A stretch of 64,000 nt of DNA from Gammaproteobacteria bacterium (GCA_026713705.1 JAPONY010000055.1:3227-67226), one strand, 5' to 3'; positions 46,447-59,780 are shown, counted from the stretch's first letter. Numbers and translations are program-made. Notes: generated by a model from the letters alone, not told the origin.

Positions 46447-47097
46447 ATGAATTTCCAAAAATCATCCCGGACACGCTGGCGGGTGTGGTTGGCAGGCGGA
46501 GTCTTTTCTCTGTTATTACTGGCTGCGCTTGTCCACGAGATGTTACGAGGTTCGAACGAGACATTTGCATTTTCTGATCCAGGTGTTCAGCTACTTCAGC
46601 CAACAGAGCTTCCGTCGGCGGCAAGTGCAATTCCCGAAATCGATATGAAACTGTTGTCGGAATCTTTGGCACAGACTCTGGACAACCGTCTTAACAAATG
46701 GGATCAACGCAACCTTGAAGTGTTCGAAAAAACCTTTCTGTCTCAGATGCGAACATTCGAAAAATGGAGGGAAGGGCTTGACGAGAAACTCAAAACACAA
46801 TCCTCCAGGCTACAGGGCATGGACCAGAAGCTGCACTTGCTTGAGCGTGGCATGAACCGGTTGCTAGGTTCCCTTGAAGACGAAGCGATTCAGGTGTCCA
46901 TGGAGCCTGAGTTCATTTTTCGGGGCATTGAAGTCTGGCATGGGCAAGCGTATGCGCTGCTTGAGCACCAAGGGCGGATTTTGCCAGCACGGCAGGGAGA
47001 CTCTCGGCTAGGCTGGAGAATCAACGCCATTGACCGCGATAATCAGAAATTACACATCAGCGACGGTATGACGAAACTTATCCTGGAGGAACAATGA
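46447..47097 (+). CDS. ICE/T4SS-module protein: N-terminal TM anchor, coiled coil, C-terminal beta-rich domain (function unknown)
   Basis: 216 aa. First gene of the co-directional cluster. Its stop overlaps the next start (ATGA). Confidence 0.45.
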   Translation: MNFQKSSRTRWRVWLAGGVFSLLLLAALVHEMLRGSNETFAFSDPGVQLLQPTELPSAASAIPEIDMKLLSESLAQTLDNRLNKWDQRNLEVFEKTFLSQMRTFEKWREGLDEKLKTQSSRLQGMDQKLHLLERGMNRLLGSLEDEAIQVSMEPEFIFRGIEVWHGQAYALLEHQGRILPARQGDSRLGWRINAIDRDNQKLHISDGMTKLILEEQ

Positions 47098-47480
47098 GCA
47101 GGGTGTGGCGCCGGGAAGCCGGATGGTTGATAGGGCTTACGGCCCTAGCTGGAGTTGCGGCATCCGTAATTCTTGATGTGCAGGCGGCGCGCGAAGAAGC
47201 GAGTCAGTGGCAGAAAACCGACCTCCGTGTGCTTCGCTGGCTGGAATTGAGCGAGGAGGAATGGCGTCAATATCAATCGTGGCGCTCCTTGATTGGCAAG
47301 CCACTGGCCGAAATGACTCCATACGAGGTCTTAGGGATTTATGCGGATGATGCAGAACAGCGGCGCCGGTTTGCTAGAGAGAATGCCCGTTTTATGCTTG
47401 ATTTCTACCGACGAACTATGGAATTTGAACAGATTTACCGAGAAGAATTGGGAAAGCTTTCGGGCGAACAAAGGCCTTAA
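47094..47480 (+). CDS. ICE/T4SS-module small protein with N-terminal TM helix
   Basis: 128 aa. Translationally coupled to the upstream gene. Confidence 0.4.
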   Translation: MSRVWRREAGWLIGLTALAGVAASVILDVQAAREEASQWQKTDLRVLRWLELSEEEWRQYQSWRSLIGKPLAEMTPYEVLGIYADDAEQRRRFARENARFMLDFYRRTMEFEQIYREELGKLSGEQRP

Positions 47481-47600
47481 ACTTTACATAAGATAAAAAA
47501 CTTTACATTTCCCAAAGCTTTACAGATAAATTTATTATTTATCAGTATGTTAATAAGCAAATAAATGGTCAAAAAAAACTGACCATTTTTCCTTGCTTTC
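47478..47600 (+). repeat. AT-rich repeated regulatory element, copy B (3x CTTTACA + IR AAATGGTC-N10-GACCATTTT)
   Basis: AACTTTACATAAGATAAAAAACTTTACATTTCCCAAAGCTTTACAGATAAA...AAATGGTCAAAAAAAACTGACCATTTTTCCTTGC. Collinear with copy A at 33699-33820. Confidence 0.7.
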
Positions 47601-47651
47601 TGGCAATGAGTGTTAGAGACTGCACAGGCGGTAATTACTCCCACGGATGGG

Positions 47652-47676
47652 GGGCCGTGTAGGGCCGCCCAGCCTT
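47652..47676 (+). promoter_or_regulatory. GC-rich hairpin in 5' leader of the main T4SS operon
   Basis: GGGCCGCCC-agcctta-GGGCGGCCC, a perfect 9-bp stem 35 nt upstream of the 47711 start. No U-tract follows. Confidence 0.35.
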
Positions 47677-47710
47677 AGGGCGGCCCTCAACTCCGCCCGG
47701 AGGCCTAAGA

Positions 47711-48124
47711 ATGAGACATGCTGAATGGCTGATTGGCACAACTGCGGCATTACTAGTGGCAGGGTGCGAGATGTTGCACTATGCGGTTCCGGTTTCGCAG
47801 CCCCGGGAACTGAGTCACATCCCGCGGCCAGGGTTGATTGACCATTCGGCATCTTCAAGGCTGACTCCCGACTATCTAGTGCGCCCGGACATGGGCGAGA
47901 GGCAGGTTCTTGGGCAACTTCTGCACGAATTGCAATTAGCCCGACACCTGATTGACGATGCTTACGAGCGCCGCGATGAGCGTGCTCGAGTGCGGGTGGA
48001 CTACGTGCGCTTAGCGGACGAATTCGACCGGATCGTGATCGGTTTGAGGCGCACTCTAACGGTGGCCGAAACGACACCGCGCGATCGCATGGACATCACC
48101 GGAGACTATCAATTGTATGAGTGA
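47711..48124 (+). CDS. ICE RAQPRD-family conjugative-transfer lipoprotein
   Basis: Lipobox (LLVAGC). Pattern L..L..ARHLIDDAYERRDERARVRVDY.RLADEFDRIVIGLRR....ETTPRDRMDITGDY matches the RAQPRD family consensus layout. Confidence 0.55.
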   Translation: MRHAEWLIGTTAALLVAGCEMLHYAVPVSQPRELSHIPRPGLIDHSASSRLTPDYLVRPDMGERQVLGQLLHELQLARHLIDDAYERRDERARVRVDYVRLADEFDRIVIGLRRTLTVAETTPRDRMDITGDYQLYE

Positions 48125-48356
48125 TTCCATGCTTGGTCAGTTCGAGGTAACTTCCGGCATCTCGGGCGAAGTTCTGGCGGAAATAACTGCTGCGACTTGC
48201 CTGCTAGTCGTGACTCTTTGGGTGTCGTGGGTGGCCGTCTCTAGTCTGCGGCAGTTACGTGACGAGACCTTAGCAGTCGGCGAAGTCGCCACTCGAATCC
48301 TGTGGGCCGGCTTGATGTTTTGCATGGTGGTCGCCCTGATTGCCTTTGTGGAGTAA
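48117..48356 (+). CDS. ICE small inner-membrane protein (PFL_4701/TIGR03758-like)
   Basis: 79 aa, two TM helices. Position and size match the small membrane proteins of GI-type T4SS. Confidence 0.4.
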   Translation: MSDSMLGQFEVTSGISGEVLAEITAATCLLVVTLWVSWVAVSSLRQLRDETLAVGEVATRILWAGLMFCMVVALIAFVE

Positions 48357-48359
48357 ATC

Positions 48360-48710
48360 ATGAGGAAACTTATTCTTGTTTTAGCGTGTGCTCTAGCGCT
48401 TCATCCGCGCTGGGGAATTGCTGTAAACACACTGGATTTGCCTGTCTTCGACGGTATTGCCGCTGATGCGACCGATCCCTTTTCATTTATTAAGTCCGTT
48501 GCGATCACAGGTATGGCTTTGGTGTTCGGCTTTCTTGTGGTGGGTGCCTTCCTCGGCTACGGCGGCGGTCTGATCGCAAAACTTAACCAAGCGCGCGTTA
48601 AGGGGGACTGGGGAAGCCTTGGAATTTACTTGGGCACCGGTTTGCTGGTCGTGATCATCATTGCCCTGATGGGCTACATGGGGGGGCAGATTCTGTCCGA
48701 CTTCGAATGA
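48360..48710 (+). CDS. ICE pilin-like membrane protein (TrbC/VirB2-like; PFL_4702/TIGR03745-like)
   Basis: Signal peptide plus two hydrophobic helices with a Gly-rich region (AFLGYGGGLIAKL). 116 aa. Confidence 0.45.
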   Translation: MRKLILVLACALALHPRWGIAVNTLDLPVFDGIAADATDPFSFIKSVAITGMALVFGFLVVGAFLGYGGGLIAKLNQARVKGDWGSLGIYLGTGLLVVIIIALMGYMGGQILSDFE

Positions 48711-49030
48711 CGCGCCCAGCTTCTCCACTCGGTTTTGAGCCGCCGATGTTTCGAGGGCTCAGTGGCACCGAATTGACCGCGGCAATAGTGTTATCGGTGG
48801 CACCAGGCACGGTGGGGGCAGGCATATTTTGTTTGTGGACTGGTTCCCTGTTGTGGGCTCTTCCGGTGCTGGTGCTGAATGCTTTCATCACGGTGTTGCT
48901 TGCAGGCACAGCGCTGAGGCACCTCAAGCGGAACCGGCCGCCCAACTGTTATCTGCAACGCGTTGCTCGCCACTTCAGACGAAGCGCCAATATCATCTGG
49001 CGGGAAGGATCCTGGAGGGTGGAGCGGTGA
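48707..49030 (+). CDS. ICE membrane protein (VirB3-like; TIGR03750-like)
   Basis: 107 aa, two TM helices. Translationally coupled on both sides. Confidence 0.4.
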   Translation: MTRPASPLGFEPPMFRGLSGTELTAAIVLSVAPGTVGAGIFCLWTGSLLWALPVLVLNAFITVLLAGTALRHLKRNRPPNCYLQRVARHFRRSANIIWREGSWRVER

Positions 49031-49659
49031 CACCTTGTAGCTTCCGTGACGAAGAACTGAACCGCCGTCGCTATGTCCGGGCACTGCAGGTCGGTCTGGT
49101 GTTTCTGGCAGTGTCACAGTTACTTGCTTACGCCGGCTGGTGGCATGCATCCGGGACGCAACGCCTGAGTCTGCCGCCCCAATTGCGCTATGGCGCAACT
49201 CTCCATGGTGATGTGGTGCATCCATGGGAAGTGTATGTTTTCGCCGGATACATCCACCAGCAGATTAACAATTGGACCGACAATGGCGCCATTGATAATT
49301 TGGAAAATATTCAACGCTTGGCGGCATTTCTCAGTCCAGACTACCGCTTCTGGCTGACACGTGAACATCAGCGCCATGAGGCTCAGTTCCGAAACCGACA
49401 ACGCAGTGTTAGCCCGGTTCTCGGGAGTTACAGCAATGAATCCGTACATCCATTAGGACAAGACACTTGGCAGGTCATTTTGGATGTTCGCCTCCGGGAC
49501 TATCTGGAGGATCAAATCTACAAAGATATTGATGTCCGTTATTTCTTGGAGGTCGTATTGCTGGATGCTGATCCCGAAACCAATGAGTGGGGATTGGTTC
49601 TGAATCGGCAGTACCAACCTCCTGAACGTTTACGTTCTCACCTGTCGGCTCTCGAATGA
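49027..49659 (+). CDS. ICE protein (PFL_4703/TIGR03746-like), N-terminal TM
   Basis: GTG start overlapping the upstream stop (GTGA); the track ORF from 48829 overlaps the previous gene. 210 aa. Confidence 0.4.
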   Translation: MTPCSFRDEELNRRRYVRALQVGLVFLAVSQLLAYAGWWHASGTQRLSLPPQLRYGATLHGDVVHPWEVYVFAGYIHQQINNWTDNGAIDNLENIQRLAAFLSPDYRFWLTREHQRHEAQFRNRQRSVSPVLGSYSNESVHPLGQDTWQVILDVRLRDYLEDQIYKDIDVRYFLEVVLLDADPETNEWGLVLNRQYQPPERLRSHLSALE

Positions 49660-50420
49660 GGTGGTTTCTAGCACTGCTGCTGTGCTTGGCGTCATCGACG
49701 GTTCTGGCGTCGTCGTCGCGGGTCTACACTGGTGATCCGCTTCCGGTACTGCTGCCGCTTGGTAAAGAGCGGCGAATCGAAATCGAGGGCGCACAGGAAG
49801 TTCGTGTCGGATTGTCTGCGGTACTGAAGGAAAGCTTGCGTGCCGAAAGCGCTGGTCCTCATGTTTGGTTAACTGCCCGGGATGCTTTGTCCCTGCAGCG
49901 TGTATACCTCAAAACCGAGACCGAGCTGTTGGTGTTGAAAGTTCGGACGGATCCCCAGGCACCGACGGAGCCGCTGAGCATCACGGTAGATCTGAAGGGC
50001 TCCAGATCTTCTCCTTCGTTTTCACCGGACAGACAGCCAAGCTATGTGGCGCTGATGCGTTATGCCATCCAAGCCTTGTATGCGCCCGACTACCGTGAAG
50101 ATCTGGTTTCCAAAATCCGGCAGGTTCTTATCGATGAACAGCCGGTGGCCCTGTTTCGTTGTCGGGAAACATATCCGTCCGCGTGTGGGGATGCGGTCGA
50201 GTCTATTCCCCATGCTGCATGGGAGGCACTTCCTTATTACATAACCGCAGTCACGGTACGCAATCGCCTGCCTGAATCCCTGACGCTTGACCCTCGCGAT
50301 CTCCGCGGGCGATTTGCGGCATCCGCCATCGTACACCCTCGTTTGGAGGCATCTGGAAGCGTCCGAGATACGACGACTGTGGTGCTGATTTCGAGTATCC
50401 CGTTTGAGCACGCCCAATGA
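49656..50420 (+). CDS. ICE periplasmic protein with signal peptide (PFL_4704/TIGR03749-like; VirB9-like role possible)
   Basis: Signal peptide MRWFLALLLCLASSTVLA. 254 aa. Coupled starts on both sides. Confidence 0.4.
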   Translation: MRWFLALLLCLASSTVLASSSRVYTGDPLPVLLPLGKERRIEIEGAQEVRVGLSAVLKESLRAESAGPHVWLTARDALSLQRVYLKTETELLVLKVRTDPQAPTEPLSITVDLKGSRSSPSFSPDRQPSYVALMRYAIQALYAPDYREDLVSKIRQVLIDEQPVALFRCRETYPSACGDAVESIPHAAWEALPYYITAVTVRNRLPESLTLDPRDLRGRFAASAIVHPRLEASGSVRDTTTVVLISSIPFEHAQ

Positions 50421-51649
50421 ACGCGCGCAGCCCGCTGCTTAAGTTGCTTGCCGGGGTTGCCTTGTTGCTTGCACTATCGGTGACATTCCTGTCCACTTCT
50501 CCGCCACCGGCTGAGCCGGAGATTCTAGTTCCCTCCAGTCGAGAACTAGATGAAGCCGCTGAGGAAGTCCGAGCCGCGGCGACCGGCATGCGCCGCTTGG
50601 AGCAAAAGATTTCAGATCAGGCGGAACAAATCCGGGAACTGGACGAATCACTTGTTGAGTTGTCCTCCCGCGTTGAACAACTGGTGCAACACAGGCGGCG
50701 GCAAGAGGAGGCGCAGACATCCAAATCATCTCCACTCTCATCGGGCGAGGCACCCGAGAAAGGGGAAGCATTTGATCTGGACACCTTGACCTATGAGCCT
50801 CCATCCAACACGGAGGCCGAGCTTTCGACGCCTCAATTTGACTTGCCACTGACTTGGGTAGAGCCGATTGATAGTGACAGGGCGTTACAGCGCAATTTGG
50901 CGGCAGTTTCGGGCAATCTGGTCGCGGGGGAAGAGACCGATAAACCACCAAGGTTCTACATCCCGCCGTCTATCCTGTCCGGATTGTCCCTGACTGCTTT
51001 GGTTGGACGCATCCCGCGTGGCGGGGCCGTGCAGGACCCGTGGCCATTCGTCGTGGTGAGCCAAGCCGACAATTTGACGGCAAACGGCGTGCGCCTTCCT
51101 CAATTGCGTGGCATCCTGTGGCGTGGCGTCGTCCGTGGCGACGCAGTGCTGTCCTGTGCAAGCGCGTCCATCCGGAGCCTGGTCTATGTGTTCGATGATG
51201 GAACATTTCATGTTGCAAAGGCGCCAGCGCAGGAGGGTTTCGGCTATCTAGCCGATAAGTCTGGCAATCCCTGCCTGGTGGGAGAGATTCATACCACGGC
51301 CCCAGAGGATATGGGCACGCATCTGTTGGCCGGTGTTCTGGCCGGCATGGGTGGGGCTTTTGCTGAGTCTCAGGTGCGGCGCAATGTCTCCGGGGGAACC
51401 GAAACGTCTCAAGTGGAGGGAGATGCTTTCAGCTACCTGCTAGGCCAGACGGTTCAAGGTGCAGCCTCCGCATACGGCGACTATCTGCTGCGGTTTGCCA
51501 ACGATACTTGGGATGCAGTGGTAGTCCCGGCCGGTCGCGAAGTGGACATCCATATCACGGACAGCATCCCTGTCATCCATTCACCAACCCGGACGATCTA
51601 TGACGATCCGATTCCTTCCTTGGCTGTGTCTTTTGGCGGTCTGGATTAG
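50417..51649 (+). CDS. ICE protein (PFL_4705/TIGR03752-like; VirB10-like topology: N-terminal TM, coiled coil, C-terminal beta domain)
   Basis: 410 aa. Has a TM helix, a coiled-coil segment (EEVRAAATGMRRLEQKISDQAEQIRELDESLVELSSRVEQL), a Pro/Ser-rich linker and a conserved C-terminal domain. Confidence 0.45.
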   Translation: MNARSPLLKLLAGVALLLALSVTFLSTSPPPAEPEILVPSSRELDEAAEEVRAAATGMRRLEQKISDQAEQIRELDESLVELSSRVEQLVQHRRRQEEAQTSKSSPLSSGEAPEKGEAFDLDTLTYEPPSNTEAELSTPQFDLPLTWVEPIDSDRALQRNLAAVSGNLVAGEETDKPPRFYIPPSILSGLSLTALVGRIPRGGAVQDPWPFVVVSQADNLTANGVRLPQLRGILWRGVVRGDAVLSCASASIRSLVYVFDDGTFHVAKAPAQEGFGYLADKSGNPCLVGEIHTTAPEDMGTHLLAGVLAGMGGAFAESQVRRNVSGGTETSQVEGDAFSYLLGQTVQGAASAYGDYLLRFANDTWDAVVVPAGREVDIHITDSIPVIHSPTRTIYDDPIPSLAVSFGGLD

Positions 51650-51953
51650 TGCCTGTGCTGCTCCGGCCGAACTCCCGGAAACCGCGAGCACGGTGCGTGA
51701 TCTATACCGGCAGGCTATGCCGTCTGGAACGCCTGCGCCCATGCCTCGCCCGCTGCCAGTCCAACCGGGCATGGGTAGCCCCTTCATGGCCGAAGTGGAC
51801 CGACAGTTGCGTCGAGACTTCAGGGAGTTCCCCAACCCGCGACTGATCCTGTATGTCTATCCACACCTTACAGCCGATGGAACCCCGGTTCCCGGGTATG
51901 CCACTTGGTTCAACGTCTTCGAGCGCGGCCCGACCCTGAAGGTTGTGCGTTGA
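51600..51953 (+). CDS. ICE conjugative-transfer-region lipoprotein (TIGR03751-like)
   Basis: Lipobox LLAVWISAC. 117 aa. Overlaps the upstream gene by 50 nt. Confidence 0.45.
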   Translation: MTIRFLPWLCLLAVWISACAAPAELPETASTVRDLYRQAMPSGTPAPMPRPLPVQPGMGSPFMAEVDRQLRRDFREFPNPRLILYVYPHLTADGTPVPGYATWFNVFERGPTLKVVR

Positions 51954-52079: not shown

Positions 52080-52367
52080 ATGCTGAGTATTCGCGTTTTT
52101 CAGCTCTTGGCTGTCGGGCTGTGCCTGCTTCTGATCGCGAAGTACATGCAGTTCATGCAGGCGACGGTTCGTGGGCTGGATCGTCTGATGATGCGGCGCT
52201 TCTTCGACGTGGATGGATTGACAAACGAGATTCGGGCCAGAGTGGAACGCAATGGCGGGGACCCACCAACTCGACACTCCTCGGAAGGATTCATGTGCCG
52301 CGCTGCTTATTTGTGGCTTTGTCGTCGCCTGCGGCAGGTGGCTGGCTTGGATTCTAGGGTCGACTGA
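52080..52367 (+). CDS. ICE small membrane protein
   Basis: Start uncertain (52023 or 52080). One TM helix. Its stop overlaps the TraU-like start. Confidence 0.3.
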   Translation: MLSIRVFQLLAVGLCLLLIAKYMQFMQATVRGLDRLMMRRFFDVDGLTNEIRARVERNGGDPPTRHSSEGFMCRAAYLWLCRRLRQVAGLDSRVD

Positions 52368-53473
52368 TGCGCTTTCCGGTCCTGGCCAGTTTGTTCTTGT
52401 GCAGCCTTTCTATGGCAATGGCCGAGACGTTCAGTACGGCGGACGTGGCGCGGCGTTCACTCCAATCCAACTGCTTGGACTGGAAGATAGTCGGAGTATG
52501 CCTGTGGCTTCATTGCAAATACGGGCGCTGCCGAATCAATACCACGCCACGAGTCCGACACTATTTGCCGGACTTGGTTTTCACTGCATACGACCAGACC
52601 GGGGCTCCACCTTGGACGGAACTTCGCACCCTGTTGGATTTGGATTCTCCTTTGGGAGACCTGTTGCAGGGAGGATCGTTTCCGTCCACGGATGCCTCGG
52701 ACGGTCACACCCTGCGATTCAAGGAAGTCGATGCAGTTGGGCATCCGTTCCCGCTACGGCAGAAAGTCTTCAATGTGGTCTACCTGTGCCGCTCTCAGGC
52801 CAAGCCGATGTTTCCGTACTTTGTATCTGCACTCGACCACATGGAGTGGCGAGGTGGATTGGAATCTGCACGTCCAGAGAGCCTAACCCCGGGCTTGCGT
52901 GAAATCGGCGATTGGCCAAGAAATTCGTGGGGGTCGGTCTTTCCGCGCACCGGTTTCGTGTGGCAGGCTGAAGATGTAAAGGCGGCCGCCGTGGCCGTAC
53001 AGCGCGCTGCCGACATCGTGACTCAACCGAATCAGGCCCGGGTGTACGTGCCGTTCGGCTATGACGGCCACCGCCGGGTCACGCACGGAAACCCAAATGC
53101 CCCAAACCGCGAAGCCTGCGAACGGTCAGGAGGATTGTGGCGTTCTGATTCTCCAGTTCCAGAGCCTTCCCACTGTGCATCCACGGCCCCGCTGGAGGAG
53201 TGCATGACTGCCGCACCCCCGCCGTCGCACACACAATCCGGACATTGCCGCCAGCAGGCGCAATTGGCTTGGCTGCCCTCGATCAACGAGCGCAACGCGC
53301 GCTGGCAGATGATCAGCCCGCGCACGCAGTCGCGTTGCGAAACCTTCGGATCTCCCTCGAATTGGTCGTTCGACAAGACCAGCGAAGACGGGAGTTATGC
53401 CTGGAACCTGTGGCGTCCCTACGAATGTTGCGCCCCGGGCAAAGGGAAATTCATTGGCCACAAAACTTTCTGA
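52367..53473 (+). CDS. ICE TraU-like conjugal transfer protein (PFL_4710 family), Cys-rich, secreted
   Basis: Signal peptide. Many conserved Cys residues (CLDWKIVGVCLWLHC, CC near the C-terminus). 368 aa; size and composition match TraU homologs of GI-type T4SS. Confidence 0.5.
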   Translation: MRFPVLASLFLCSLSMAMAETFSTADVARRSLQSNCLDWKIVGVCLWLHCKYGRCRINTTPRVRHYLPDLVFTAYDQTGAPPWTELRTLLDLDSPLGDLLQGGSFPSTDASDGHTLRFKEVDAVGHPFPLRQKVFNVVYLCRSQAKPMFPYFVSALDHMEWRGGLESARPESLTPGLREIGDWPRNSWGSVFPRTGFVWQAEDVKAAAVAVQRAADIVTQPNQARVYVPFGYDGHRRVTHGNPNAPNREACERSGGLWRSDSPVPEPSHCASTAPLEECMTAAPPPSHTQSGHCRQQAQLAWLPSINERNARWQMISPRTQSRCETFGSPSNWSFDKTSEDGSYAWNLWRPYECCAPGKGKFIGHKTF

Positions 53474-53533
53474 GGAGGAACCATCGTGGGCAAAAAGAAA
53501 AAATCAAAAAAGAAAGTCACTCTGGAACGCATC

Positions 53534-53722: not shown

Positions 53723-56507
53723 TCGCAAGCGGAATGCGTTTGACCGCTGGCTCGCCGGACTTCGTCCGGCGTTGCCAGCGGATCCAAGACACGCGCCGAA
53801 TGCGGGAGCTAGTTGCTGGAGCGGGCAGGGCCGCCGACCTTTAACCCGGGCACAATTTGCGCGTCCGATAGCGGGGAGTAAATCCGTTTTGCAGGAGATA
53901 AGAACTTCGGCATCCTTTGCGGAGTTACTGTTCCCCAAGGCCGCACTTGGGCCGGAGATGATTCTGATGAAGGATCTATGCAGTGTCGGCCGTTTGTTCG
54001 ATCTGGCTCCCGCACATACCGAAGGAAGGCCGGACAACATTATCGAGGACCTCCACCAGCGCCTGATGCCTTTGTTGCGTGACGTATTTCCGCAAAACCA
54101 GCGCAGGCCATGGGTGGCACAGTTTTTTGTGTATGACCGCCATCACCTAGCCGACGATCTTCAGGCACTTGAGCAGTATCTAAACTCGATGACTCGGAAT
54201 TCGGTCTATTCGCAGCACTGGATGGAAGTGTTACGCGAACACTACCAAGATGCCTGTAAAAAGAATGGTTTTTTCTTTGATCCGGTTAGTCAAACGCCGT
54301 GGAAAGGGAAAATACGATGCATACGATTGTGTGTTTGGCGCATTGAGGAGCCGGGTGGGGTCCCGGATGGACAGCACCTCGACGATCTATGCGAACGCCT
54401 GACTCATTCATTAGCTCAGGTGGGCATTCGTTTGATGCCTTTGAGTGGCGAGGATCTCTGCCGTTGGCTGGATGACTGGTTCGGCCCAGCCCAAGAAGCC
54501 GCGGATACCCCCAAGGTGCCACTGGCCGCTACACCGTTGACCTTGCTAAAAGGCACGGCCTTGGGAGATTTGGCGCATCGGGCCCTGCGGCGCGGTGCTC
54601 CATGGTCCTCAGCCAGTAATAACTGCTGGTATTTCCATGGTCGTCCACATCGCTTTCTGACGGTCAACGCGATCCTAGGGGAACCACGAATCGGACACTT
54701 GACTGCTGAGCGAATGATCGGGGACCGCCGGCAGACGCTCTGGGATCAGATGCCAGAAGAGGCAATCTGGATGATGGCTGTGGTGTTTGCCCCGCAGGAT
54801 GACATTTTGGAACATGTCGCCCGTGTTAAGCGTAATGCGGTCGGCGGTGATCCGCAGGCGATGGCCATCCGCACCCTTGCAGAAGAAGCAGTGCAGCAAG
54901 TGTCCGATGGCAATCCGATCATGCCGGTGTTTAGTGGCGTCTTCATTTCAGCACCGGATGACGACATTCTGGAGCAGCGGGTCCGGGGATTGTCTGCCAC
55001 TCTAATGGCTCACGGTATTGCGTTGATTCCCCCAAGGGATGATCCCTTGGCTCAGGATTCCTATATTCGTGCACTGCCATTCAATTTCAGCCCAGAGCAA
55101 GATCAGCGCTTCTACGTACGCCGTTCCCGTCTGTGGTTCATGGATCATGTGGTGAGGTGCCTGCCGGTATACGGACGCTCCACCGGAACGCGGCATCCGG
55201 GCCTAATGGCATGGAATCGTGGCGCAGAGCCGCTGTCATTCGATCCGCTTAATCCGGTGGATAGGACCAAGAATGCGCACTTATTCGTATTCGGACCGAC
55301 TGGCTCCGGAAAAACCGCTTTTCTCGTCAATACATTACTGCATACAGTCGCAGTACACCGTCCCCGGCTGTACCTAATAACGGCATTGCCAACATTTGGC
55401 TTGCTCGCGAAACACTTCAAGTCGCAAGGCTTATCGGTGAATCATGTCAACGGAGATCGGACCTCGATTCCTCCGTTTGCAGATGCCCGATTGCTCTTGG
55501 GTGCCGGCTCGGCACCCGCCGCCGACAGGGTGGAGGACGAGGTCGAGCGTGACCTTCTGGGCGAAATGGAGATACAGGCAAGGCTGATGGTTACGGGTGG
55601 AGATCCGAAAGAAGAGCAGCGCTTCACGCGCGAGGACCTGAATCTGATTCGAAAGTCATTGTTGGCGGTCGCTAATGCTGCTGCGAATCACCCGGACACA
55701 CCAGTGTTAACCCAGAATTTGTCGGACTTGATGCACCGGGCAGCCGAATCCGGACGACTGCAGGACGACATGCTGAGCGAGGATCAGCGGCGCAGCCTGA
55801 GTCGGATGGCTAATTCGATTGAACTGTTCTGCACTGGGCAGGCGGGGGAGATATTCAACCGCCCAGGAGAAACTTGGGTCGAGTCCGATGTGACCGTGGT
55901 GGAACTGGGGGCGTTGGCGCATCGGCGCAATGAGGCGTGGTTGGCAGTGGCAATGAGTGGGCTGCTGTCCCGCATCAATGACCAAGTACAGGCTCAGCAA
56001 TATTCTGCCCGGCAGACCGTCGTGGTTCTGGACGAAGCGCATCTGCTCCTGAAGAATCCATTAATTTCTCCCTACATCCTGTCAATTTCCGCAATGTGGC
56101 GCACATATGGCGCTTGGTTGTGGATCGCAACTCAAAGCCTGCGTCAGATTCCGGAAACCGCGCGTGAACTTCTAAATCAGCCGGAGTGGTGGATTTGCAT
56201 GGCCATGGAGCAGGACGAGGTAGACATGATCGGACGATTTCGAAGGCTTGACGAAGAGCAGAAAGCGATGATTCTGTCCGCCCGCAAGGAGTCTGGCAAA
56301 TATACCGAAGGTGTGGTGATGTCCGGCAAGTTGATGACTCCGTTTCGCAATGTTGTGCCAGCGTTGTCGCTAGCCCTGAGCCAGACGGAGAAAGATGAGA
56401 AAGCGCATCGGGCCAGTCTCATGCGGCAGCACGGATGCACGGAACTTGAGGCGGTTCACCGGATCAGCGAGTCGATTCGTCAGCAACGCCAAGGGCGGGA
56501 ACCATGA
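53715..56507 (+). CDS. traC: Conjugative transfer ATPase TraC/VirB4 family (ICE PFL_4706-type)
   Basis: 930 aa. Walker A FVFGPTGSGKTAFLVNTLL, Walker B-like VVVLDEAHLLL. Size and domain order match VirB4-class ATPases of GI-type T4SS. Confidence 0.7.
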   Translation: MSDRKRNAFDRWLAGLRPALPADPRHAPNAGASCWSGQGRRPLTRAQFARPIAGSKSVLQEIRTSASFAELLFPKAALGPEMILMKDLCSVGRLFDLAPAHTEGRPDNIIEDLHQRLMPLLRDVFPQNQRRPWVAQFFVYDRHHLADDLQALEQYLNSMTRNSVYSQHWMEVLREHYQDACKKNGFFFDPVSQTPWKGKIRCIRLCVWRIEEPGGVPDGQHLDDLCERLTHSLAQVGIRLMPLSGEDLCRWLDDWFGPAQEAADTPKVPLAATPLTLLKGTALGDLAHRALRRGAPWSSASNNCWYFHGRPHRFLTVNAILGEPRIGHLTAERMIGDRRQTLWDQMPEEAIWMMAVVFAPQDDILEHVARVKRNAVGGDPQAMAIRTLAEEAVQQVSDGNPIMPVFSGVFISAPDDDILEQRVRGLSATLMAHGIALIPPRDDPLAQDSYIRALPFNFSPEQDQRFYVRRSRLWFMDHVVRCLPVYGRSTGTRHPGLMAWNRGAEPLSFDPLNPVDRTKNAHLFVFGPTGSGKTAFLVNTLLHTVAVHRPRLYLITALPTFGLLAKHFKSQGLSVNHVNGDRTSIPPFADARLLLGAGSAPAADRVEDEVERDLLGEMEIQARLMVTGGDPKEEQRFTREDLNLIRKSLLAVANAAANHPDTPVLTQNLSDLMHRAAESGRLQDDMLSEDQRRSLSRMANSIELFCTGQAGEIFNRPGETWVESDVTVVELGALAHRRNEAWLAVAMSGLLSRINDQVQAQQYSARQTVVVLDEAHLLLKNPLISPYILSISAMWRTYGAWLWIATQSLRQIPETARELLNQPEWWICMAMEQDEVDMIGRFRRLDEEQKAMILSARKESGKYTEGVVMSGKLMTPFRNVVPALSLALSQTEKDEKAHRASLMRQHGCTELEAVHRISESIRQQRQGREP

Positions 56508-57832
56508 CTGTTTGGGTTCGCGCTTGTGCGTGGGGTCTGATCCTATCAATAATCCCCACAGTCTCCGATGCGCAAATCAAGCTTCCGAGCAGTGAGGAAT
56601 TGGGTTTGTATTACACGCTTGGGGGTTCGCGTGCGGTTCCCCCGACTCCCGGCCAGACGTTACGCATCAAACTGCTTCCAGACATTCAGGCGGGGGCTAC
56701 CTACAGCTGCGGAAAGTTCGACTTTCGCTTTCAGGTCGAAGAAATCCTAAAACGGTTGGAAGATCAACTAACGACCCTGAAATCGCTTCCGGAACAGATC
56801 CTTTTGGCCTTGCCGGGCGGTTTGTTCTGTCGGGCCTTTCCAGGTGCCTGTCAGTTGATGCAGTACTACACCATCCGCGCGGGTGAAGCATATAAGTTAG
56901 CGCTTGGCTCCTGCCAGGAAATAGAGAAAGGGATTGCCGATCGGGGGCCTGCTGGCGCTTGGACGAAGATTGCCAAGTCGCTGGAGTGGGGGCAGCAGGC
57001 GCATGAGGGAAGCAATGTGCTGGAAGCACAGGAAGAAGCGGAGGAAGCTCCCGAAAAGGGATTGGCTTGGGTTGGCGGCCAACGTGCAGGGGGTGTAGGT
57101 CAGGACTTAATTCGCCCGGTTTATGACAGCACTCGTGCCGGGTGGTGTCTGCTGAACGGTGAGCCGGTCACATGCCGGGAATCCGAACGTACAACTGAAA
57201 TTTCAAGTTTGTTCGAGACTCCAGAAGCTGCAGCGAATTGGTTGGTCGACATCTCTGGTGAACAGGCCATCAGTTTGGTTGACAGTGCGCCGAGTCCGAC
57301 TATTACCGGACATGGTCTGTTGCCTTTGATCGAGACCGAGCGACAACGCATCGAGGAAATTCTGCAGCGGTTGGTCAAAACCGATCTGGTGGAATTAACA
57401 AGCGAAGATTTGACGAACATCTCAAGCCGCAATCTGGCGATGCGTCGGGAAATTATCGACGGTTTGCAAGCCCATCCGGATGCGGAATGGCGTATTCAGC
57501 GCTTGGCGTCGGAGTTGGCGACTGCGCGAATCGTGGAGAAGACCTTTGTTGCTAGGGCCGCCTTGATGGCAGGGCGCCAAGAACCGAATGTTGCGGCATT
57601 GGCTCCAGCCCAGGAGGCGCTGGGCACGGCATTCGAACGCATCAATCATCAGGTGGATTTCGTACTGAATGAAGTGCAAGCTTCGCACCGCTTGGCGTCC
57701 GAAACGATCCGGACCTTTATCGAATACGAAATGCTCGGTGGCGTCCTCAAGCCGATCCGGTTGAGTCCTCCCGAGGATACCGATTCCCGATTGATCGATG
57801 GCGGGTTTCCACTTCCGAAGGAAGAACCCTAA
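56504..57832 (+). CDS. ICE protein with signal peptide (PFL_4711/TIGR03755-like)
   Basis: 442 aa. N-terminal signal peptide. Coupled to traC and the following gene. Confidence 0.4.
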   Translation: MTVWVRACAWGLILSIIPTVSDAQIKLPSSEELGLYYTLGGSRAVPPTPGQTLRIKLLPDIQAGATYSCGKFDFRFQVEEILKRLEDQLTTLKSLPEQILLALPGGLFCRAFPGACQLMQYYTIRAGEAYKLALGSCQEIEKGIADRGPAGAWTKIAKSLEWGQQAHEGSNVLEAQEEAEEAPEKGLAWVGGQRAGGVGQDLIRPVYDSTRAGWCLLNGEPVTCRESERTTEISSLFETPEAAANWLVDISGEQAISLVDSAPSPTITGHGLLPLIETERQRIEEILQRLVKTDLVELTSEDLTNISSRNLAMRREIIDGLQAHPDAEWRIQRLASELATARIVEKTFVARAALMAGRQEPNVAALAPAQEALGTAFERINHQVDFVLNEVQASHRLASETIRTFIEYEMLGGVLKPIRLSPPEDTDSRLIDGGFPLPKEEP

Positions 57833-58203
57833 TGGATAGTTTCCGGGTGCGCCGCATACTTTGGTTCCTGCTGGCTATCTTGGCGGGAGGAACAGTATTT
57901 TTCTATGCGGCACAGCAATTGGCGGATGCGACTCCAGACTCTTTGGGTCGTACGGCCGCCATCATGTCGCGGTGGAAAGACTTCTTTGAGCGCTATGGTC
58001 TCTGGCTTCACCTGGGTGCACACGGGGCAACCTACCTGTACCTGATTTTGCGTTGGCCACAACTGGTCTGCTGGGTCGATCGGCGGCGGGCCGCACGGGG
58101 ATACACGCCGCTGTCGGTGGTCGAGCAGCGCCGGCTGGTGTGGGCCGTGATCACTGTCTGCGTGACTTACGAAGGCTTGTTGATGTTGCGCTATCTGGAT
58201 TGA
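57832..58203 (+). CDS. ICE small membrane protein
   Basis: 123 aa, three hydrophobic helices. Confidence 0.35.
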   Translation: MDSFRVRRILWFLLAILAGGTVFFYAAQQLADATPDSLGRTAAIMSRWKDFFERYGLWLHLGAHGATYLYLILRWPQLVCWVDRRRAARGYTPLSVVEQRRLVWAVITVCVTYEGLLMLRYLD

Positions 58204-58208
58204 CGGGA

Positions 58209-59780
58209 ATGTACGCGACGATCCCCGCGTTCAGCCACATAGAGGTCTACTTGACCATGTTTGGCTGGAGCATGTACGAGCTACTGTTCGAACTGGCCGA
58301 CGACCTCAACCTGCTCCTGATTCCATTTCTGGTGGTGATCGTTCGCAACTTCATTGTTCCGCTTAGCACCGAAAACATTTTCCCTAACAGCGGGGGTTCT
58401 GTCAGTCAGATGAGAGTGGACCTCCCGGTGGCACTGGTGGTGTTCATTTTCATGGTCGTGCCTTATGTCAAGGTTGAGCCGAACTCTATCGAATACACCC
58501 CGGTCTGCCAACTTGGAAGTGTTACTCATACCTACGGGGACACTGGCACTACTTACGACACCACCCAGTTGGCCCGTTTTCATGAGAAACATCCCAGAGT
58601 TCCAATATTCTGGGCCGTGGTGCTGTCGGTCAGTGGTGGCATCACTCAGGCCGTGCTGCAGCATTTGCCATGCTTTCAGGATTACTCTGGGCTCGCATTC
58701 CGAACCCGCCACGCTTTCATCAAGGACCCGGGCATCCGCCAGGAATTTGATCATTTTGCTAGTCAGTGCTTTGTGCCAGCTTGGCGAAAATATGAGATCT
58801 TCCGGCCTTCAGAAGAAATTGTGCCGCGTAAGGATGCAGAGTATCCGGGTAACCGCTATTTTCTGGAAGAGCCTGGATATTACGCTCTATGCAGCGCGGT
58901 CACGGAGCAGGGCGCCTGTTCGTTCGATCCCTACCCCCGGCCTCGAACGACGGTCAAGCGTTGGAAGGGGGATCATCAGTTGCCAGTTTGCCGGGACTGG
59001 TGGCTTGGCAATGGAGAGAATGAGGGCTTGTTGAAAATTCTGGCACGCTTTGTGCCAGATATGGACTGGATTGCGGACTTCACCAAGGGGACTTATAGCC
59101 AGGACTTCATTGAAGAACAAATGGTTCGCAACACTATCCTCAACGGTCCGCGTCGTTATGGCATCGGTGGGCCAGACAATGAGATACTGGCAGGCCTTGC
59201 AGCGTTTGCCGCAGGCTCTGGAATTGCCAGTGGTTTGGCTGCCTGGGCTGCGAGCGGTAGCCTTGCGGCATTCACGCTATCCACTGCGGTTGGCGCAACT
59301 GCTTTCGTCGGGTCCGAAGCACTGGGGCTGTATGCCCGGTTGCATATCATGCGGCGGATTGCGCCCATGGCGCAGAGCCTGATGCTGATGGTGCTGTATA
59401 TGCTTCTGGGAGCGTATTTGTTCCTGACTTTCTACAGCCTAACGGCGGCCCTGAGAATCATGATCATGATAGTGGCGGTCCGGTTGTTTTCAATGATGTT
59501 TGGCATATCGAATTTCCTTGACGATACGCTGATAGATGCAATGTATCCCGGTATGAAGCTTGGCGATGCCGGGCGCTGGGAAGTGGACCGGATCGCTCTT
59601 GGCTACGGCACGATGGCATTACACATGCTGCTGCCCCTGGGAATGTTGTGGGTGATTTATGCAGCGGGTAATGCTGCCATGCGAGGGTTGGATGCGCTGG
59701 GGCCCTCTTCGGATCCGACCGGAGTCGGAAATGCCGGTCGCGTCAGCACTCTAGGGATGGCGCGCAACATCAAACGATGA
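58209..59780 (+). CDS. traG: TraG-N-like polytopic membrane conjugation protein (mating-pair stabilisation family)
   Basis: 523 aa with 8+ TM helices. Last gene of the cluster. The track start at 58053 overlaps the previous gene; the ATG at 58209 is preferred. Confidence 0.45.
   Translation: MYATIPAFSHIEVYLTMFGWSMYELLFELADDLNLLLIPFLVVIVRNFIVPLSTENIFPNSGGSVSQMRVDLPVALVVFIFMVVPYVKVEPNSIEYTPVCQLGSVTHTYGDTGTTYDTTQLARFHEKHPRVPIFWAVVLSVSGGITQAVLQHLPCFQDYSGLAFRTRHAFIKDPGIRQEFDHFASQCFVPAWRKYEIFRPSEEIVPRKDAEYPGNRYFLEEPGYYALCSAVTEQGACSFDPYPRPRTTVKRWKGDHQLPVCRDWWLGNGENEGLLKILARFVPDMDWIADFTKGTYSQDFIEEQMVRNTILNGPRRYGIGGPDNEILAGLAAFAAGSGIASGLAAWAASGSLAAFTLSTAVGATAFVGSEALGLYARLHIMRRIAPMAQSLMLMVLYMLLGAYLFLTFYSLTAALRIMIMIVAVRLFSMMFGISNFLDDTLIDAMYPGMKLGDAGRWEVDRIALGYGTMALHMLLPLGMLWVIYAAGNAAMRGLDALGPSSDPTGVGNAGRVSTLGMARNIKR

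What the first reader, a model, noticed from the sequence alone, without database searches (positions are those of the whole stretch)
46447..59780. GI/ICE-type (tfc-like, MPF-G) type IV secretion mating-pair-formation module without visible integrase, relaxase or coupling protein
Seventeen co-directional, mostly translationally coupled genes (ATGA/GTGA overlaps). They include a RAQPRD lipoprotein, small membrane proteins, a pilin-like protein, a TraU-like Cys-rich protein, a VirB4/TraC ATPase (Walker A GPTGSGKT), a PFL_4705-like VirB10-topology protein, a TIGR03751-like lipoprotein and a TraG-N-like polytopic protein. This is the gene content and order of genomic-island-type conjugation systems (ICEHin1056/PAPI-1/PFGI-1 class). 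The module lies between pgeF and purH. No tRNA, integrase, TraD-type coupling ATPase or TraI relaxase is present in the window. It may be a partial or remnant ICE, or the rest may lie beyond the window. TraU precedes TraC here, unlike the commonest order.
Basis: partly seen in the sequence, partly recalled or inferred. Interest (0 to 1): 0.6.

Follow-up and report, generated by a model that had tools for sequence, protein, structure and literature searches.

The report
Domesticated conjugation-type secretion machine in sponge symbionts
The 17 genes are a genuine ICE-type (MPF-G) type IV secretion apparatus, but rather than a broken mobile element they are a chromosomal machine without coupling protein, relaxase or integrase nearby that a genus of small-genome sponge symbionts (Candidatus Porisulfidus) has inherited vertically and kept intact.

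Summary
Window 46447-59780 holds 17 co-directional, mostly overlapping genes, and 13 of them match MPF-G/ICE families. These include TraC/VirB4 (840 bits), TraU-like, VirB8/9/10-like proteins, RAQPRD, the TIGR03751 lipoprotein and TraG_N. The 64-kb window has no tRNA, integrase, coupling protein (T4CP) or relaxase.

The "remnant ICE, or the rest lies beyond the window" reading is not supported. The window matches a 1.57-Mb "Candidatus Porisulfidus" chromosome, from a sponge-symbiont genus. The same cluster, with the same rearranged order, occurs in all 11 other related loci examined. These loci lie in five different housekeeping contexts and never sit beside an integrase, relaxase or T4CP.

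Every gene is intact and keeps its length. dN/dS is 0.02-0.35, and dS equals that of the flanking bamD/rluD/pgeF/purH genes. The closest outgroups (44-47% TraC identity) are true conjugative modules with a MOBH relaxase and a T4CP immediately upstream of RAQPRD. In Porisulfidus that position is a 230-bp non-coding spacer.

My best reading is a domesticated, T4CP-less MPF-G machine. It probably builds a TraC-powered envelope complex or pilus used for contact or export rather than for ICE transfer. The function itself is inferred. I could not scan whole genomes for a T4CP or relaxase encoded elsewhere.

The parts
46353..46382 (+). Palindromic, terminator-like repeat AAATGGTC-N10-GACCATTT with flanking A and T runs, between pgeF and the first cluster gene
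   Evidence: Found as a repeat with the copy at 47563. The motif search gave 3 hits in the window against 0 expected. It folds as a hairpin of -15.7 kcal/mol, z = -4.3. It is present at the same place in L001-L005.
46447..47097 (+). g01: inner-membrane-anchored periplasmic protein with a TM segment, a coiled coil and a C-terminal PilP/GspC-HR-like beta domain. It is the positional equivalent of ICEclc orf73029. It is peripheral: absent at the locus in L006, L007 and L012
   Evidence: No Pfam or NCBIfam hit. In the AF2 model residues 155-216 have pLDDT 85-90. Best Foldseek matches are GspC HR domain 3oss_C (TMt 0.76, rmsd 2.4 A) and PilP 2y4y. A homologue lies next to the TIGR03759-like gene in outgroup L010 (E 4e-11). 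dN/dS is 0.18-0.30.
47094..47480 (+). g02: short (128 aa) TIGR03759-like protein that keeps only the N-terminal part of the family. The region Daveri et al. relate to a thiol-disulfide oxidoreductase is missing
   Evidence: TIGR03759 at E 1e-7, covering profile positions 12-88 of 200. Outgroup homologues are 213-220 aa.
47481..47710 (+). Non-coding spacer at the place where canonical MPF-G clusters carry the lytic transglycosylase, DUF2859, TraD T4CP and TIGR03747. It contains three CTTTACA direct repeats, the AAATGGTC/GACCATTT palindrome (47563-47588) and a GC-rich hairpin (47662-47688) just before the RBS of g03
   Evidence: Sequence. Conservation across Porisulfidus loci, including the distant L006 and L007. 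Repeat family. The hairpin has 5 pairs with compensatory changes. Canonical gene orders. No Rfam hit.
47711..48124 (+). g03: RAQPRD-family lipoprotein (lipobox LLVAGC)
   Evidence: TIGR01690 at E 4e-10. PF09686 at 42.5 bits, above its cutoff.
48117..48356 (+). g04: small 2-TM protein, TIGR03758/DUF3262-like
   Evidence: Weak hits at E 9e-4 and 4e-3. Same position as in ICEclc. dN/dS is 0.06-0.15.
48360..48710 (+). g05: candidate major pilin, TIGR03745/DUF2976-like (VirB2 analogue)
   Evidence: DUF2976 at E 4e-3, below cutoff. Position and length match ICEclc iceB2. The HMM finds outgroup homologues at E 1e-16. dN/dS is 0.03-0.11.
48707..49030 (+). g06: TIGR03750/DUF3487, 2-TM, VirB3-like
   Evidence: TIGR03750 at E 1.9e-14. 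PF11990 at 45.5 bits, above its cutoff.
49027..49659 (+). g07: PFL_4703/TIGR03746/DUF2895, VirB8-like
   Evidence: 146 bits, above the 137 cutoff. PF11444 hit. GTG start with a GTGA overlap.
49656..50420 (+). g08: TIGR03749/DUF3438, VirB9/TraK-like
   Evidence: E 1.4e-36. PF11920 at 125 bits.
50417..51649 (+). g09: TIGR03752, VirB10/TraB-like
   Evidence: E 3.8e-56. Weak TrbI match at E 1e-4.
51600..51953 (+). g10: TIGR03751 conjugal-transfer lipoprotein (lipobox WISAC), a possible TraV/VirB7 analogue
   Evidence: E 7.5e-15.
52080..52367 (+). g11: clade-specific 95-aa single-TM protein preceding TraU
   Evidence: No family hit. Conserved in every Porisulfidus-clade locus and not detected in outgroups L010, L011 and L014. 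dN/dS is 0.14-0.33.
52367..53473 (+). g12: TIGR03756 / TraU-like Cys-rich periplasmic protein, relocated upstream of TraC
   Evidence: 262 bits, above the 188 cutoff. PF06834 hit. Order comparison.
53486..53722 (+). g12b: clade-specific small acidic cytoplasmic helical-hairpin protein (62-78 aa), translationally coupled to TraC
   Evidence: Conserved reading frame in all clade loci and absent from the outgroups. AF2 mean pLDDT 88, two long helices. Called as a 78-aa gene in public assemblies. No informative fold match.
53715..56507 (+). g13: TraC/VirB4 ATPase of the PFL_4706 type. It is the only ATPase in the cluster
   Evidence: TIGR03744 at 839.6 bits against a 520.6 cutoff. Walker A and B are conserved in 9 genomes. 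930-aa orthologues. The exhaustive search shows the clade as one 50%-identity cluster, with the next relatives at <=48%.
56504..57832 (+). g14: TIGR03755 periplasmic protein. My inference is that it is the TraH-like Tfc22 equivalent
   Evidence: E 2.1e-76, 257 bits, just under the 270 cutoff. No PDB sequence match. Guglielmini 2014 mapping of Tfc22 to TraH.
57832..58203 (+). g15: small 3-TM protein, positional analogue of ICEclc orf55120
   Evidence: No family hit. Conserved in all clade loci. Position comparison.
58209..59780 (+). g16: TraG_N polytopic inner-membrane protein (VirB6/TraG-like), the most constrained gene of the cluster
   Evidence: PF07916 at 92 bits. dN/dS is 0.02-0.05. It is 96-98% nucleotide-identical to L001 against a background of 86-92%.

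Best explanation
This is a chromosomally fixed, domesticated MPF-G (ICEHin1056/ICEclc/PAPI-1 class) type IV secretion apparatus of the sponge-symbiont genus Candidatus Porisulfidus.

What is shown:
- The genes encode the MPF-G envelope machinery: a pilin candidate, VirB3/6/8/9/10-like proteins, two lipoproteins, TraU- and TIGR03755-type periplasmic factors, and one VirB4/TraC ATPase with intact Walker motifs.
- The block that in canonical elements holds the lytic transglycosylase, DUF2859, the TraD coupling protein and TIGR03747 is replaced by a 230-bp spacer.
- No relaxase, integrase, tRNA or att-like repeat is nearby in any of the 12 loci.
- The cluster has co-diverged with the chromosome under purifying selection.

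What is inferred:
- The machine no longer transfers an ICE.
- MPF-G shares its core with F-type systems. There, from established knowledge of plasmid F, pilus assembly needs TraC but not the coupling protein TraD. By that analogy, the retained set should still assemble the envelope-spanning complex and a pilus.
- It would then serve a non-conjugative role in the sponge. Either it mediates adhesion or cell contact, as the T4CP-less Bartonella Trw system does, or it exports Sec-delivered periplasmic substrates without a T4CP, as Bordetella Ptl does.
- The clade-specific genes g11 and g12b and the relocation of TraU mark this remodelling.
For: Family membership:
- HMM hits for 13 of the 17 genes.

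Organism and genome size:
- The TraC query matches at 100% in a 1.57-Mb Ca. Porisulfidus chromosome, with orthologues in 8 further MAGs of 1.6-1.9 Mb.
- Porisulfidus is described as a sponge symbiont and as an outgroup to SUP05.

Intactness and order:
- Gene lengths and order are identical across the genomes.

Selection and vertical descent:
- dN/dS is 0.02-0.35 for every gene.
- Cluster dS equals flank dS: about 0.32-0.54 for the window against L001, and about 1-2 against L002-L004.
- TraC Walker A and B motifs are conserved in all 9 genomes.

Context:
- All flanks are housekeeping genes in five different contexts, and one genome has the cluster split.

Loss of the DNA-transfer functions:
- Outgroups at 44-47% TraC identity carry a MOBH relaxase, a T4CP, ArdC and integrases. 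Their T4CP lies directly upstream of RAQPRD and their order is TraC then TraU.
- Homology searches seeded with those outgroup T4CP and relaxase proteins returned no protein on any contig that carries a Porisulfidus-type TraC.

Mechanistic background:
- Guglielmini et al. report that small genomes carry relaxase-less T4SS but almost no conjugative systems, that MPF-G occurs almost only as ICEs, and that MPF-G is homologous to MPF-F in core and pilus-assembly proteins.
Against: - Whole Porisulfidus chromosomes could not be scanned. The T4CP and relaxase tests rest on a word-indexed search (top 120 of 391 T4CP hits shown) and on matching contig lengths. A divergent or unrelated T4CP or relaxase elsewhere in the genome is therefore not excluded.
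- Three proteins reported as essential for ICEclc transfer are missing: the PilL/DotD-like lipoprotein, TIGR03747/DUF4400 and IceD4. By that standard the machine might be incomplete.
- g01 and g02 are absent at the locus in L006, L007 and L012. The first ten genes are absent at the L009 locus.
- Cluster GC3 (0.60) is lower than that of the upstream housekeeping genes (0.72). The adjacent pgeF, purH and rhodanese genes are similarly low, however.
- There are no expression data, no identified substrate, and no precedent for a non-conjugative MPF-G system in the literature I searched.
Confidence: 0.6

Rival explanations
1. The apparatus still works in conjugation. The coupling protein, relaxase and oriT are encoded elsewhere in the chromosome, as a split or in-trans system, so the cluster mobilises DNA between symbiont cells.
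For: Only about 64 kb of the window plus about 20 kb per related genome were inspected. Split conjugation loci exist in some bacteria (Guglielmini 2011). The cluster itself is split in L009. Mosaic identity between lineages shows that homologous recombination occurs in these populations.
Against: No T4CP or MOBH relaxase related to those of the nearest outgroups lies on any contig carrying the Porisulfidus TraC. Several of those contigs are 1-2.6 Mb, close to whole chromosomes. The T4CP partner TIGR03747 is also gone. Conjugative systems are nearly absent from genomes this small.
Confidence: 0.17
2. It is a T4CP-independent DNA uptake or DNA release machine, working like Helicobacter ComB, which would feed recombination among symbiont lineages.
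For: ComB is a relaxase-less T4SS derivative used for DNA import; that ComB also lacks a coupling protein is from my own knowledge. Nucleotide identity along the cluster is mosaic: the window against L005 alternates between 100%, 96-98% and 92%, and TraG_N is 96-98% identical to L001 against a background near 89%. That pattern implies DNA exchange between lineages.
Against: No competence genes are linked to the cluster. No MPF-G system has been shown to import DNA. Recombination could equally arise by other routes. None of this was tested directly.
Confidence: 0.12
3. It is a decaying remnant of an ICE that lost its integration and DNA-processing modules and is on its way to deletion. This was one of the first reader's suggestions.
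For: Integrase, relaxase, T4CP and several accessory genes (Dsb/thioredoxin-like proteins, lytic transglycosylase, PilL) are missing. GC3 is lower than in the bulk of the window.
Against: All 17 reading frames are intact and equal in length across genomes whose synonymous sites are saturated. dN/dS is 0.02-0.35. ATPase motifs are conserved. The genomes are strongly reduced, and useless DNA is normally lost from such genomes.
Confidence: 0.03

Closest known systems
ICEclc / PAPI-1 / ICEHin1056 (tfc) conjugation systems, MPF-G class
   Same: The protein families are homologous: TraC_PFL_4706, TIGR03746/49/50/51/52/55/56/58/59, RAQPRD and TraG_N. The order is collinear from RAQPRD to TIGR03751 and from TIGR03755 to TraG_N.
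   Different: TraD T4CP, TIGR03747, lytic transglycosylase, DUF2859, PilL/DotD-like lipoprotein, DUF1525/DsbA-type genes, relaxase and integrase are absent. TraU has moved upstream of TraC, together with two new small genes (g11, g12b). TIGR03759 is truncated. TraC is only about 36% identical to plasmid and ICE TraC. The cluster is inherited vertically rather than horizontally.
Uncultured marine conjugative modules L011 and L015 (nearest outgroups, TraC 44-47% identical)
   Same: They are the closest relatives of every core gene. They have the same compact RAQPRD-to-TraG_N layout.
   Different: They keep a MOBH relaxase, a T4CP directly upstream of RAQPRD, ArdC, integrases, DUF1525 and the canonical TraC-then-TraU order.
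Bartonella Trw, Bordetella Ptl, Brucella VirB and Helicobacter ComB (T4CP-less exapted T4SS)
   Same: The comparison is functional: chromosomal, vertically inherited T4SS lacking both coupling protein and relaxase, in host-associated bacteria, and used for adhesion, toxin export or DNA uptake. This is from established knowledge; Ptl, Brucella and ComB are cited.
   Different: Those systems are all MPF-T (VirB-like), not MPF-G, and most have a VirB11 ATPase. No homology beyond the generic VirB4/8/9/10 level was found. No substrate or adhesin has been identified here.
F-plasmid pilus-assembly subset (TraA, L, E, K, B, V, C, W, U, F, H, G-N)
   Same: According to Guglielmini 2014, MPF-G shares homologues of TraK/B/V, TraL, TraE, TraG, TraU and TraH. 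F pili are made without the coupling protein TraD (established knowledge).
   Different: It belongs to a different VirB4 clade and has a different pilin family. No TraW, TrbC or TraF homologues were detected here.

Membership tests
MPF-G type IV secretion system (mating-pair-formation module) | VirB4 ATPase of the TraC_PFL_4706 (TIGR03744) clade | tested here: met
   839.6 bits against a curated cutoff of 520.6, covering profile positions 29-891 of 892. Walker A and B motifs are intact.
MPF-G type IV secretion system (mating-pair-formation module) | Several MPF-G-specific accessory families clustered with VirB4 | tested here: met
   Twelve further families were detected. TIGR03746 and TIGR03756 are above NCBIfam cutoffs. 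RAQPRD, DUF3487, DUF2895, DUF3438, TraU and TraG_N are above Pfam cutoffs. The rest are significant but below cutoff, indicating a divergent lineage.
MPF-G type IV secretion system (mating-pair-formation module) | Canonical gene order (... TIGR03751, TraC, [Dsb], TIGR03757, TraU, TIGR03755, x, TraG_N) | tested here: not met
   TraU, with g11 and g12b, lies between TIGR03751 and TraC, and TIGR03757 is absent. The rest of the cluster is collinear with ICEclc and the Pseudomonas plasmid.
MPF-G type IV secretion system (mating-pair-formation module) | PilL/DotD-like outer-membrane lipoprotein and TIGR03747/DUF4400 membrane protein (both essential in ICEclc) | tested here: not met
   No hit in the cluster or window. 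g01 is PilP/GspC-HR-like and is not a lipoprotein.
Integrative and conjugative element (self-transmissible ICE) | TraD/VirD4-type coupling protein | tested here: not met
   Absent from the 64-kb window and from all 12 loci. The canonical site is a 230-bp spacer. The search seeded with the outgroup T4CP found none on Porisulfidus contigs. Whole genomes were not scanned.
Integrative and conjugative element (self-transmissible ICE) | Relaxase (MOBH/TraI_2 in this class) | tested here: not met
   None in the window or the loci. All 77 hits of the search seeded with the outgroup relaxase lie on other contigs. Whole genomes were not scanned.
Integrative and conjugative element (self-transmissible ICE) | Integrase plus an attachment site (tRNA or flanking direct repeats) | tested here: not met
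   No tRNA. No Phage_integrase or recombinase hit among the scanned ORFs. No boundary direct repeats.
Integrative and conjugative element (self-transmissible ICE) | Horizontal, patchy inheritance relative to the host chromosome | tested here: not met
   Cluster dS equals flank dS. Protein identities track those of purH and pgeF. The cluster is present in all 12 clade loci examined.
Exapted, T4CP-independent T4SS (works like Trw, Ptl or ComB; not homologous membership) | Chromosomal, relaxase-less and T4CP-less, vertically maintained under selection in a host-associated lineage | tested here: met
   with the caveat that whole genomes were not scanned.
Exapted, T4CP-independent T4SS (works like Trw, Ptl or ComB; not homologous membership) | Demonstrated non-conjugative output (pilus or adhesin, secreted substrate, or DNA uptake) | not testable with these tools
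   This needs expression data, imaging or genetics. No substrate gene is recognisable next to the cluster.

The most novel reading that the evidence does not exclude
This would be the first recognised exaptation of an MPF-G (ICE-type) T4SS. An ancestor of the sponge symbiont genus Ca. Porisulfidus captured a compact conjugative module and deleted its coupling protein, relaxase and integrase. It remodelled the operon by relocating TraU and adding two new small genes. The symbionts have since used the TraC-powered pilus or channel as a symbiosis organelle, for host-cell or matrix adhesion or for T4CP-independent export, throughout the radiation of the genus.
Probability: 0.45. Interest if true: 0.75.

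Novelty: new variant of a known kind. Interest (0 to 1): 0.6.

Why it matters
MPF-G systems are known almost exclusively as the transfer machinery of ICEs. In 2013, protein delivery had been shown experimentally only for MPF-T and MPF-I systems. A T4CP-less, relaxase-less MPF-G apparatus that a reduced-genome animal symbiont has kept under strong purifying selection would extend T4SS exaptation to a third proteobacterial class.

It would also give a concrete candidate for how abundant sulfur-oxidising sponge symbionts contact their host or each other. The genome papers I could search do not mention it.

The comparison also yields a natural deletion series: true conjugative outgroups, then L010, then the Porisulfidus core (15 genes in every clade locus but L009). 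The series indicates which MPF-G parts belong to the envelope and pilus machine and which to DNA transfer. The biological role is still an inference, so this is a lead and not a demonstrated new function.

Tried and rejected
- Rfam scan of 45800-61300 at E <= 1 gave only two chance-level hits.
- Promoter and terminator consensus scans did not exceed shuffled expectation.
- A search for att-like direct repeats around the cluster found none. It did reveal the palindromic repeat family.
- HMMs of g01, g11 and g15 against the Pseudomonas veronii plasmid gave no significant hit, so only positional analogy is available.
- A PDB sequence-profile search for g01 returned mostly coiled-coil noise and a weak DotF match (E 0.086).
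- The same search for g14/TIGR03755 found nothing.
- A fold search for g12b matched only generic helical hairpins and designed proteins, so it was uninformative.
- Literature searches for Porisulfidus, sponge sulfur-oxidising symbionts, T4SS, or MPF-G with symbiont or exaptation found no description of this cluster.
- The NCBI taxonomy has no entry starting with "Candidatus Porisulfidus".
- I considered whether the palindrome with CTTTACA repeats is a T4SS-specific operator. I rejected that as specific, because a full copy also follows spoT at 33696-33825.
- I considered the remnant-ICE reading and rejected it on dN/dS and intactness.

Full report
**Observation**

Window 46447-59780 contains 17 co-directional genes with 1-8 nt overlaps at most junctions. 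NCBIfam and Pfam place 13 of them in the families that define genomic-island-type (MPF-G) conjugation systems:
- TIGR03759 (weak, N-terminal part only)
- RAQPRD
- TIGR03758 (weak)
- a DUF2976-like pilin candidate (weak)
- TIGR03750/DUF3487
- TIGR03746/DUF2895
- TIGR03749/DUF3438
- TIGR03752
- the TIGR03751 lipoprotein
- TIGR03756/TraU
- TIGR03744 TraC (839.6 bits, cutoff 520.6)
- TIGR03755
- TraG_N

Only TraC, TIGR03746 and TIGR03756 pass NCBIfam's curated cutoffs, so the lineage is divergent.

The other four genes have no family hit:
- g01, 46447
- g11, 52080
- g12b, 53486
- g15, 57832

The true TraC start is 53715 (930 aa). The 53616 ORF start overlaps g12b, a conserved small gene in another frame.

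The rest of the window is housekeeping. It includes cysS, the fad genes, RNase R, purD, rho, spoT, recG, pilD-coaE-zapD, nadE and bamD-rluD-pgeF, with purH downstream. It contains no tRNA, integrase, coupling protein or relaxase.

**Origin**

One scan of GTDB species genomes with TraC returned nine loci.
- The TraC query matches at 100% in the 1.57-Mb chromosome of an uncultured "Candidatus Porisulfidus" (OZ220694.1).
- The region is 99.07% nucleotide-identical to that chromosome over 43616-59782.
- It is 100% identical to JGI metagenome contig Ga0209021_1001866.
- The other eight loci are Porisulfidus or unnamed gammaproteobacterial sponge MAGs with chromosomes of 1.6-1.9 Mb and TraC 67-93% identical.
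- Two further clade members came from protein look-ups, one of them on a 2.63-Mb contig.

Porisulfidus is described in the literature as a sponge symbiont and is used as an outgroup to SUP05.

**Conservation**

- Every cluster gene is present, intact and of nearly identical length in L001-L005 and L008.
- Genes g03-g16 are conserved in L006, L012 and L013, and in L007 up to the contig end, which cuts TraG_N.
- L009 carries only g11-g16 at its locus.
- Nei-Gojobori dN/dS is 0.02-0.35 for all genes, the same range as bamD, rluD, pgeF and purH.
- dS of most cluster genes equals dS of the flanks. It is about 0.32-0.54 against L001 and 1-2 or saturated against L002-L004.
- TraG_N is the most constrained gene (dN/dS 0.02-0.05).
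- TraC Walker A and B motifs are invariant in nine genomes.

This pattern shows vertical co-divergence under purifying selection and excludes a decaying remnant.

**Context**

The cluster lies in five different housekeeping contexts:

| Loci | Upstream | Downstream |
|---|---|---|
| Window, L001, L002, L005 (L004: upstream beyond contig end) | bamD-rluD-pgeF | rhodanese-purH |
| L003 | pgeF | mscS-plsX-fabH-uvrC |
| L006 | msrA | gshA |
| L012 | msrA | rimP-nusA-infB |
| L008 | not identified | hisS-der |

In L009 the second half of the cluster follows metG and a sulfur-transport gene. No locus has an integrase, relaxase or T4CP within 7-10 kb. No att-like repeats flank the window copy.

**What was lost and what was changed**

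The ICEclc order is taken from Daveri et al. 2023, Table 1: pilL, orf73029, TIGR03759, iceB1, DUF2859, iceD4 (T4CP), TIGR03747, orf67800, RAQPRD... TIGR03751, iceB4, dsbA, radC, TIGR03757, iceU, TIGR03755, orf55120, traG. A Pseudomonas veronii plasmid shows the same order, with a MobH relaxase nearby.

The nearest relatives of the Porisulfidus TraC (44-47% identity) are real conjugative modules.
- L015 has a TraI_2 relaxase, two ORFs, a T4CP, a DtrJ-like gene and then RAQPRD.
- L011 has ArdC, a T4CP, RAQPRD ... and two integrases.
- Wherever a gene follows TraC in the outgroup loci that show it (L010, L011, L016), the order is TraC, DUF1525, TraU.

In Porisulfidus the following differences are seen.
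- The block from iceB1 to orf67800, which includes the T4CP and TIGR03747, is replaced by the 230-bp spacer 47481-47710.
- PilL and all Dsb/thioredoxin-type genes are absent.
- TIGR03759 is reduced to its N-terminal 128 aa.
- TraU has moved in front of TraC, flanked by two genes found only in this clade. g11 is a single-TM protein. g12b is an acidic helical hairpin with AF2 pLDDT 88, translationally coupled to TraC.

g01 has a TM segment, a coiled coil and a C-terminal beta domain that matches the GspC HR domain and PilP (TMt 0.76). This agrees with the PilP-like assignment of its positional equivalent, ICEclc orf73029.

L010 is another outgroup. It also lacks a T4CP at the canonical site but keeps type IVb pilus genes, DUF1525 and an integrase.

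**Is a T4CP or relaxase encoded elsewhere?**

I could not fetch whole chromosomes. As a proxy I searched the protein collection with two seeds:
- the L011 T4CP (391 hits, best 120 listed, down to 38% identity)
- the L015 relaxase (all 77 hits listed)

No listed hit lies on a contig whose length matches any of the contigs carrying Porisulfidus-type TraC. Several of those contigs are 1.05-2.63 Mb. This is weak to moderate evidence of absence. The search is word-indexed and would miss a divergent or unrelated T4CP.

**Position in the family**

The exhaustive HMMER search against 1.84 billion representatives gave the following.
- 220 proteins score at E <= 1e-30.
- The Porisulfidus clade collapses into one full-length 50%-identity cluster (84% identity to the query).
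- The next relatives fall at 48%, 44% and 42-43% identity.
- The bulk of ICE and plasmid TraC lies at 30-40%.

Plasmid TraC proteins are about 36% identical.

**Mechanism**

*Shown.* The cluster is a complete-looking MPF-G envelope set with a single, catalytically competent-looking VirB4 ATPase. It is chromosomally fixed, under selection, and lacks the DNA-processing and coupling genes at the locus.

*Inferred.* It no longer transfers an ICE. Guglielmini et al. 2014 show that MPF-G shares TraK/B/V-, TraL-, TraE-, TraG-, TraU- and TraH-like components with F-type systems. In F, pilus assembly needs TraC but not the coupling protein TraD (established knowledge). The retained genes should therefore suffice for an envelope-spanning complex and a pilus.

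Known T4CP-less T4SS give the plausible outputs:
- adhesion (Bartonella Trw)
- export of periplasmic substrates (Bordetella Ptl, Brucella VirB)
- DNA uptake (Helicobacter ComB)

I favour contact/adhesion or T4CP-independent export in the sponge. My confidence that the system is non-conjugative and functional is about 0.6, and the specific output is unresolved.

The rivals are in-trans conjugation (0.17), DNA uptake or release (0.12) and a remnant (0.03).

**Points against or unresolved**

- PilL/DotD and TIGR03747, both essential for ICEclc transfer, are missing.
- g01 and g02 are dispensable in some genomes.
- The first half of the cluster is not at the L009 locus.
- GC3 of the cluster (0.60) is below that of the upstream genes (0.72). 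The adjacent pgeF, purH and rhodanese genes are equally low, so this may be a regional effect.
- No expression data or substrates are available.

**Novelty**

Guglielmini et al. noted three relevant points.
- Relaxase-less T4SS are common in small genomes, while conjugative systems are not.
- MPF-G is found almost exclusively as ICEs.
- Only MPF-T and MPF-I had been shown to deliver proteins.

I found no paper describing this cluster or any non-conjugative MPF-G system.

I rate it a new variant of a known kind: a remodelled, T4CP-less, vertically inherited MPF-G system in an animal symbiont. Interest is 0.6. The comparative evidence for domestication is strong, but the function is inferred and whole-genome absence of a T4CP and relaxase remains to be checked.

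Noticed in passing
window 33696-33825 and 47481-47610 (full copies); 46353-46382 and 34520-34566 (partial copies): A repeated intergenic module of about 120 bp. It has three CTTTACA direct repeats about 18 bp apart, followed by the palindrome AAATGGTC-N8-10-GACCATTT with flanking A and T runs. It starts right after the stop codons of spoT and g02. The palindrome arms are invariant even in distant species, while the spacer varies. It may be a bidirectional terminator, an operator or a small mobile repeat. It is not specific to the T4SS.
   Followed up: partly
window 47662-47688 (and the same position in L001-L004, L006, L007, L012): A GC-rich hairpin immediately upstream of the ribosome-binding site of the RAQPRD gene. 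Five pairs show compensatory changes across species. There is no Rfam match. It may be a 5'-UTR stabiliser or attenuator for the main operon.
   Followed up: partly
window 33670-35020: The last ~190 nt (63 codons) of spoT are duplicated at 34310-34501. Between and after the copies lie two small DUF1640/CCDC90-like tail-anchored coiled-coil genes (33882-34313 and 34786-35013), in a low-GC stretch (0.52). It looks like an insertion of a small gene cassette with duplication of the target end.
   Followed up: no
window 59967-60479 (g17), with 33-nt tandem repeats at 60147-60311: A third DUF1640-like gene sits just after TraG_N. It contains five 11-aa repeats. The gene is absent from the otherwise 99%-identical L005, nearly identical in L001 (dS 0.04) and only about 40% identical in L002 and L004. 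It is a strain-variable gene and not part of the conserved cluster.
   Followed up: partly
window 43616-62800 compared with L005 and L001: Nucleotide identity is mosaic. Against L005 it alternates between 100% stretches, 96-98% patches (52.6-53.1, 56.6-57.6 and 58.1-59.6 kb) and 92% downstream of TraG_N. Against L001 the background is 86-92%, but TraG_N is 96-98% identical. This suggests homologous recombination among co-existing symbiont lineages.
   Followed up: partly
L010 (ENA ERZ25070917 contig ctg125033, 332 kb), positions 1-22835: A relative with 46% TraC identity that may represent an intermediate state. Type IVb pilus genes (T2SSE, T2SSF, PilS, prepilin peptidase) are followed by g01-like and TIGR03759-like genes and then directly by RAQPRD, with no T4CP at the canonical site. 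The order is the canonical TraC-DUF1525-TraU. Four metabolic genes are inserted before TIGR03755-TraG_N, and an integrase lies at the end.
   Followed up: partly
L009 (OY764335.1), positions 4701-16016: In this Porisulfidus genome only the second half of the cluster (g11 to TraG_N) is at the locus. It lies directly after metG and a sulfur-transport gene. The first half (RAQPRD to TIGR03751) must be elsewhere in the genome or lost.
   Followed up: no
window 1638-2723: An ERG4/ERG24-family sterol reductase-like gene (E 1.8e-43) in a bacterial symbiont genome. This family is unusual in bacteria.
   Followed up: no
window ~45500-64000: GC3 drops from about 0.72 in the genes before 45 kb to 0.51-0.66 in pgeF, the whole cluster, the rhodanese gene and purH. 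The compositional shift therefore covers housekeeping neighbours as well as the T4SS.
   Followed up: partly
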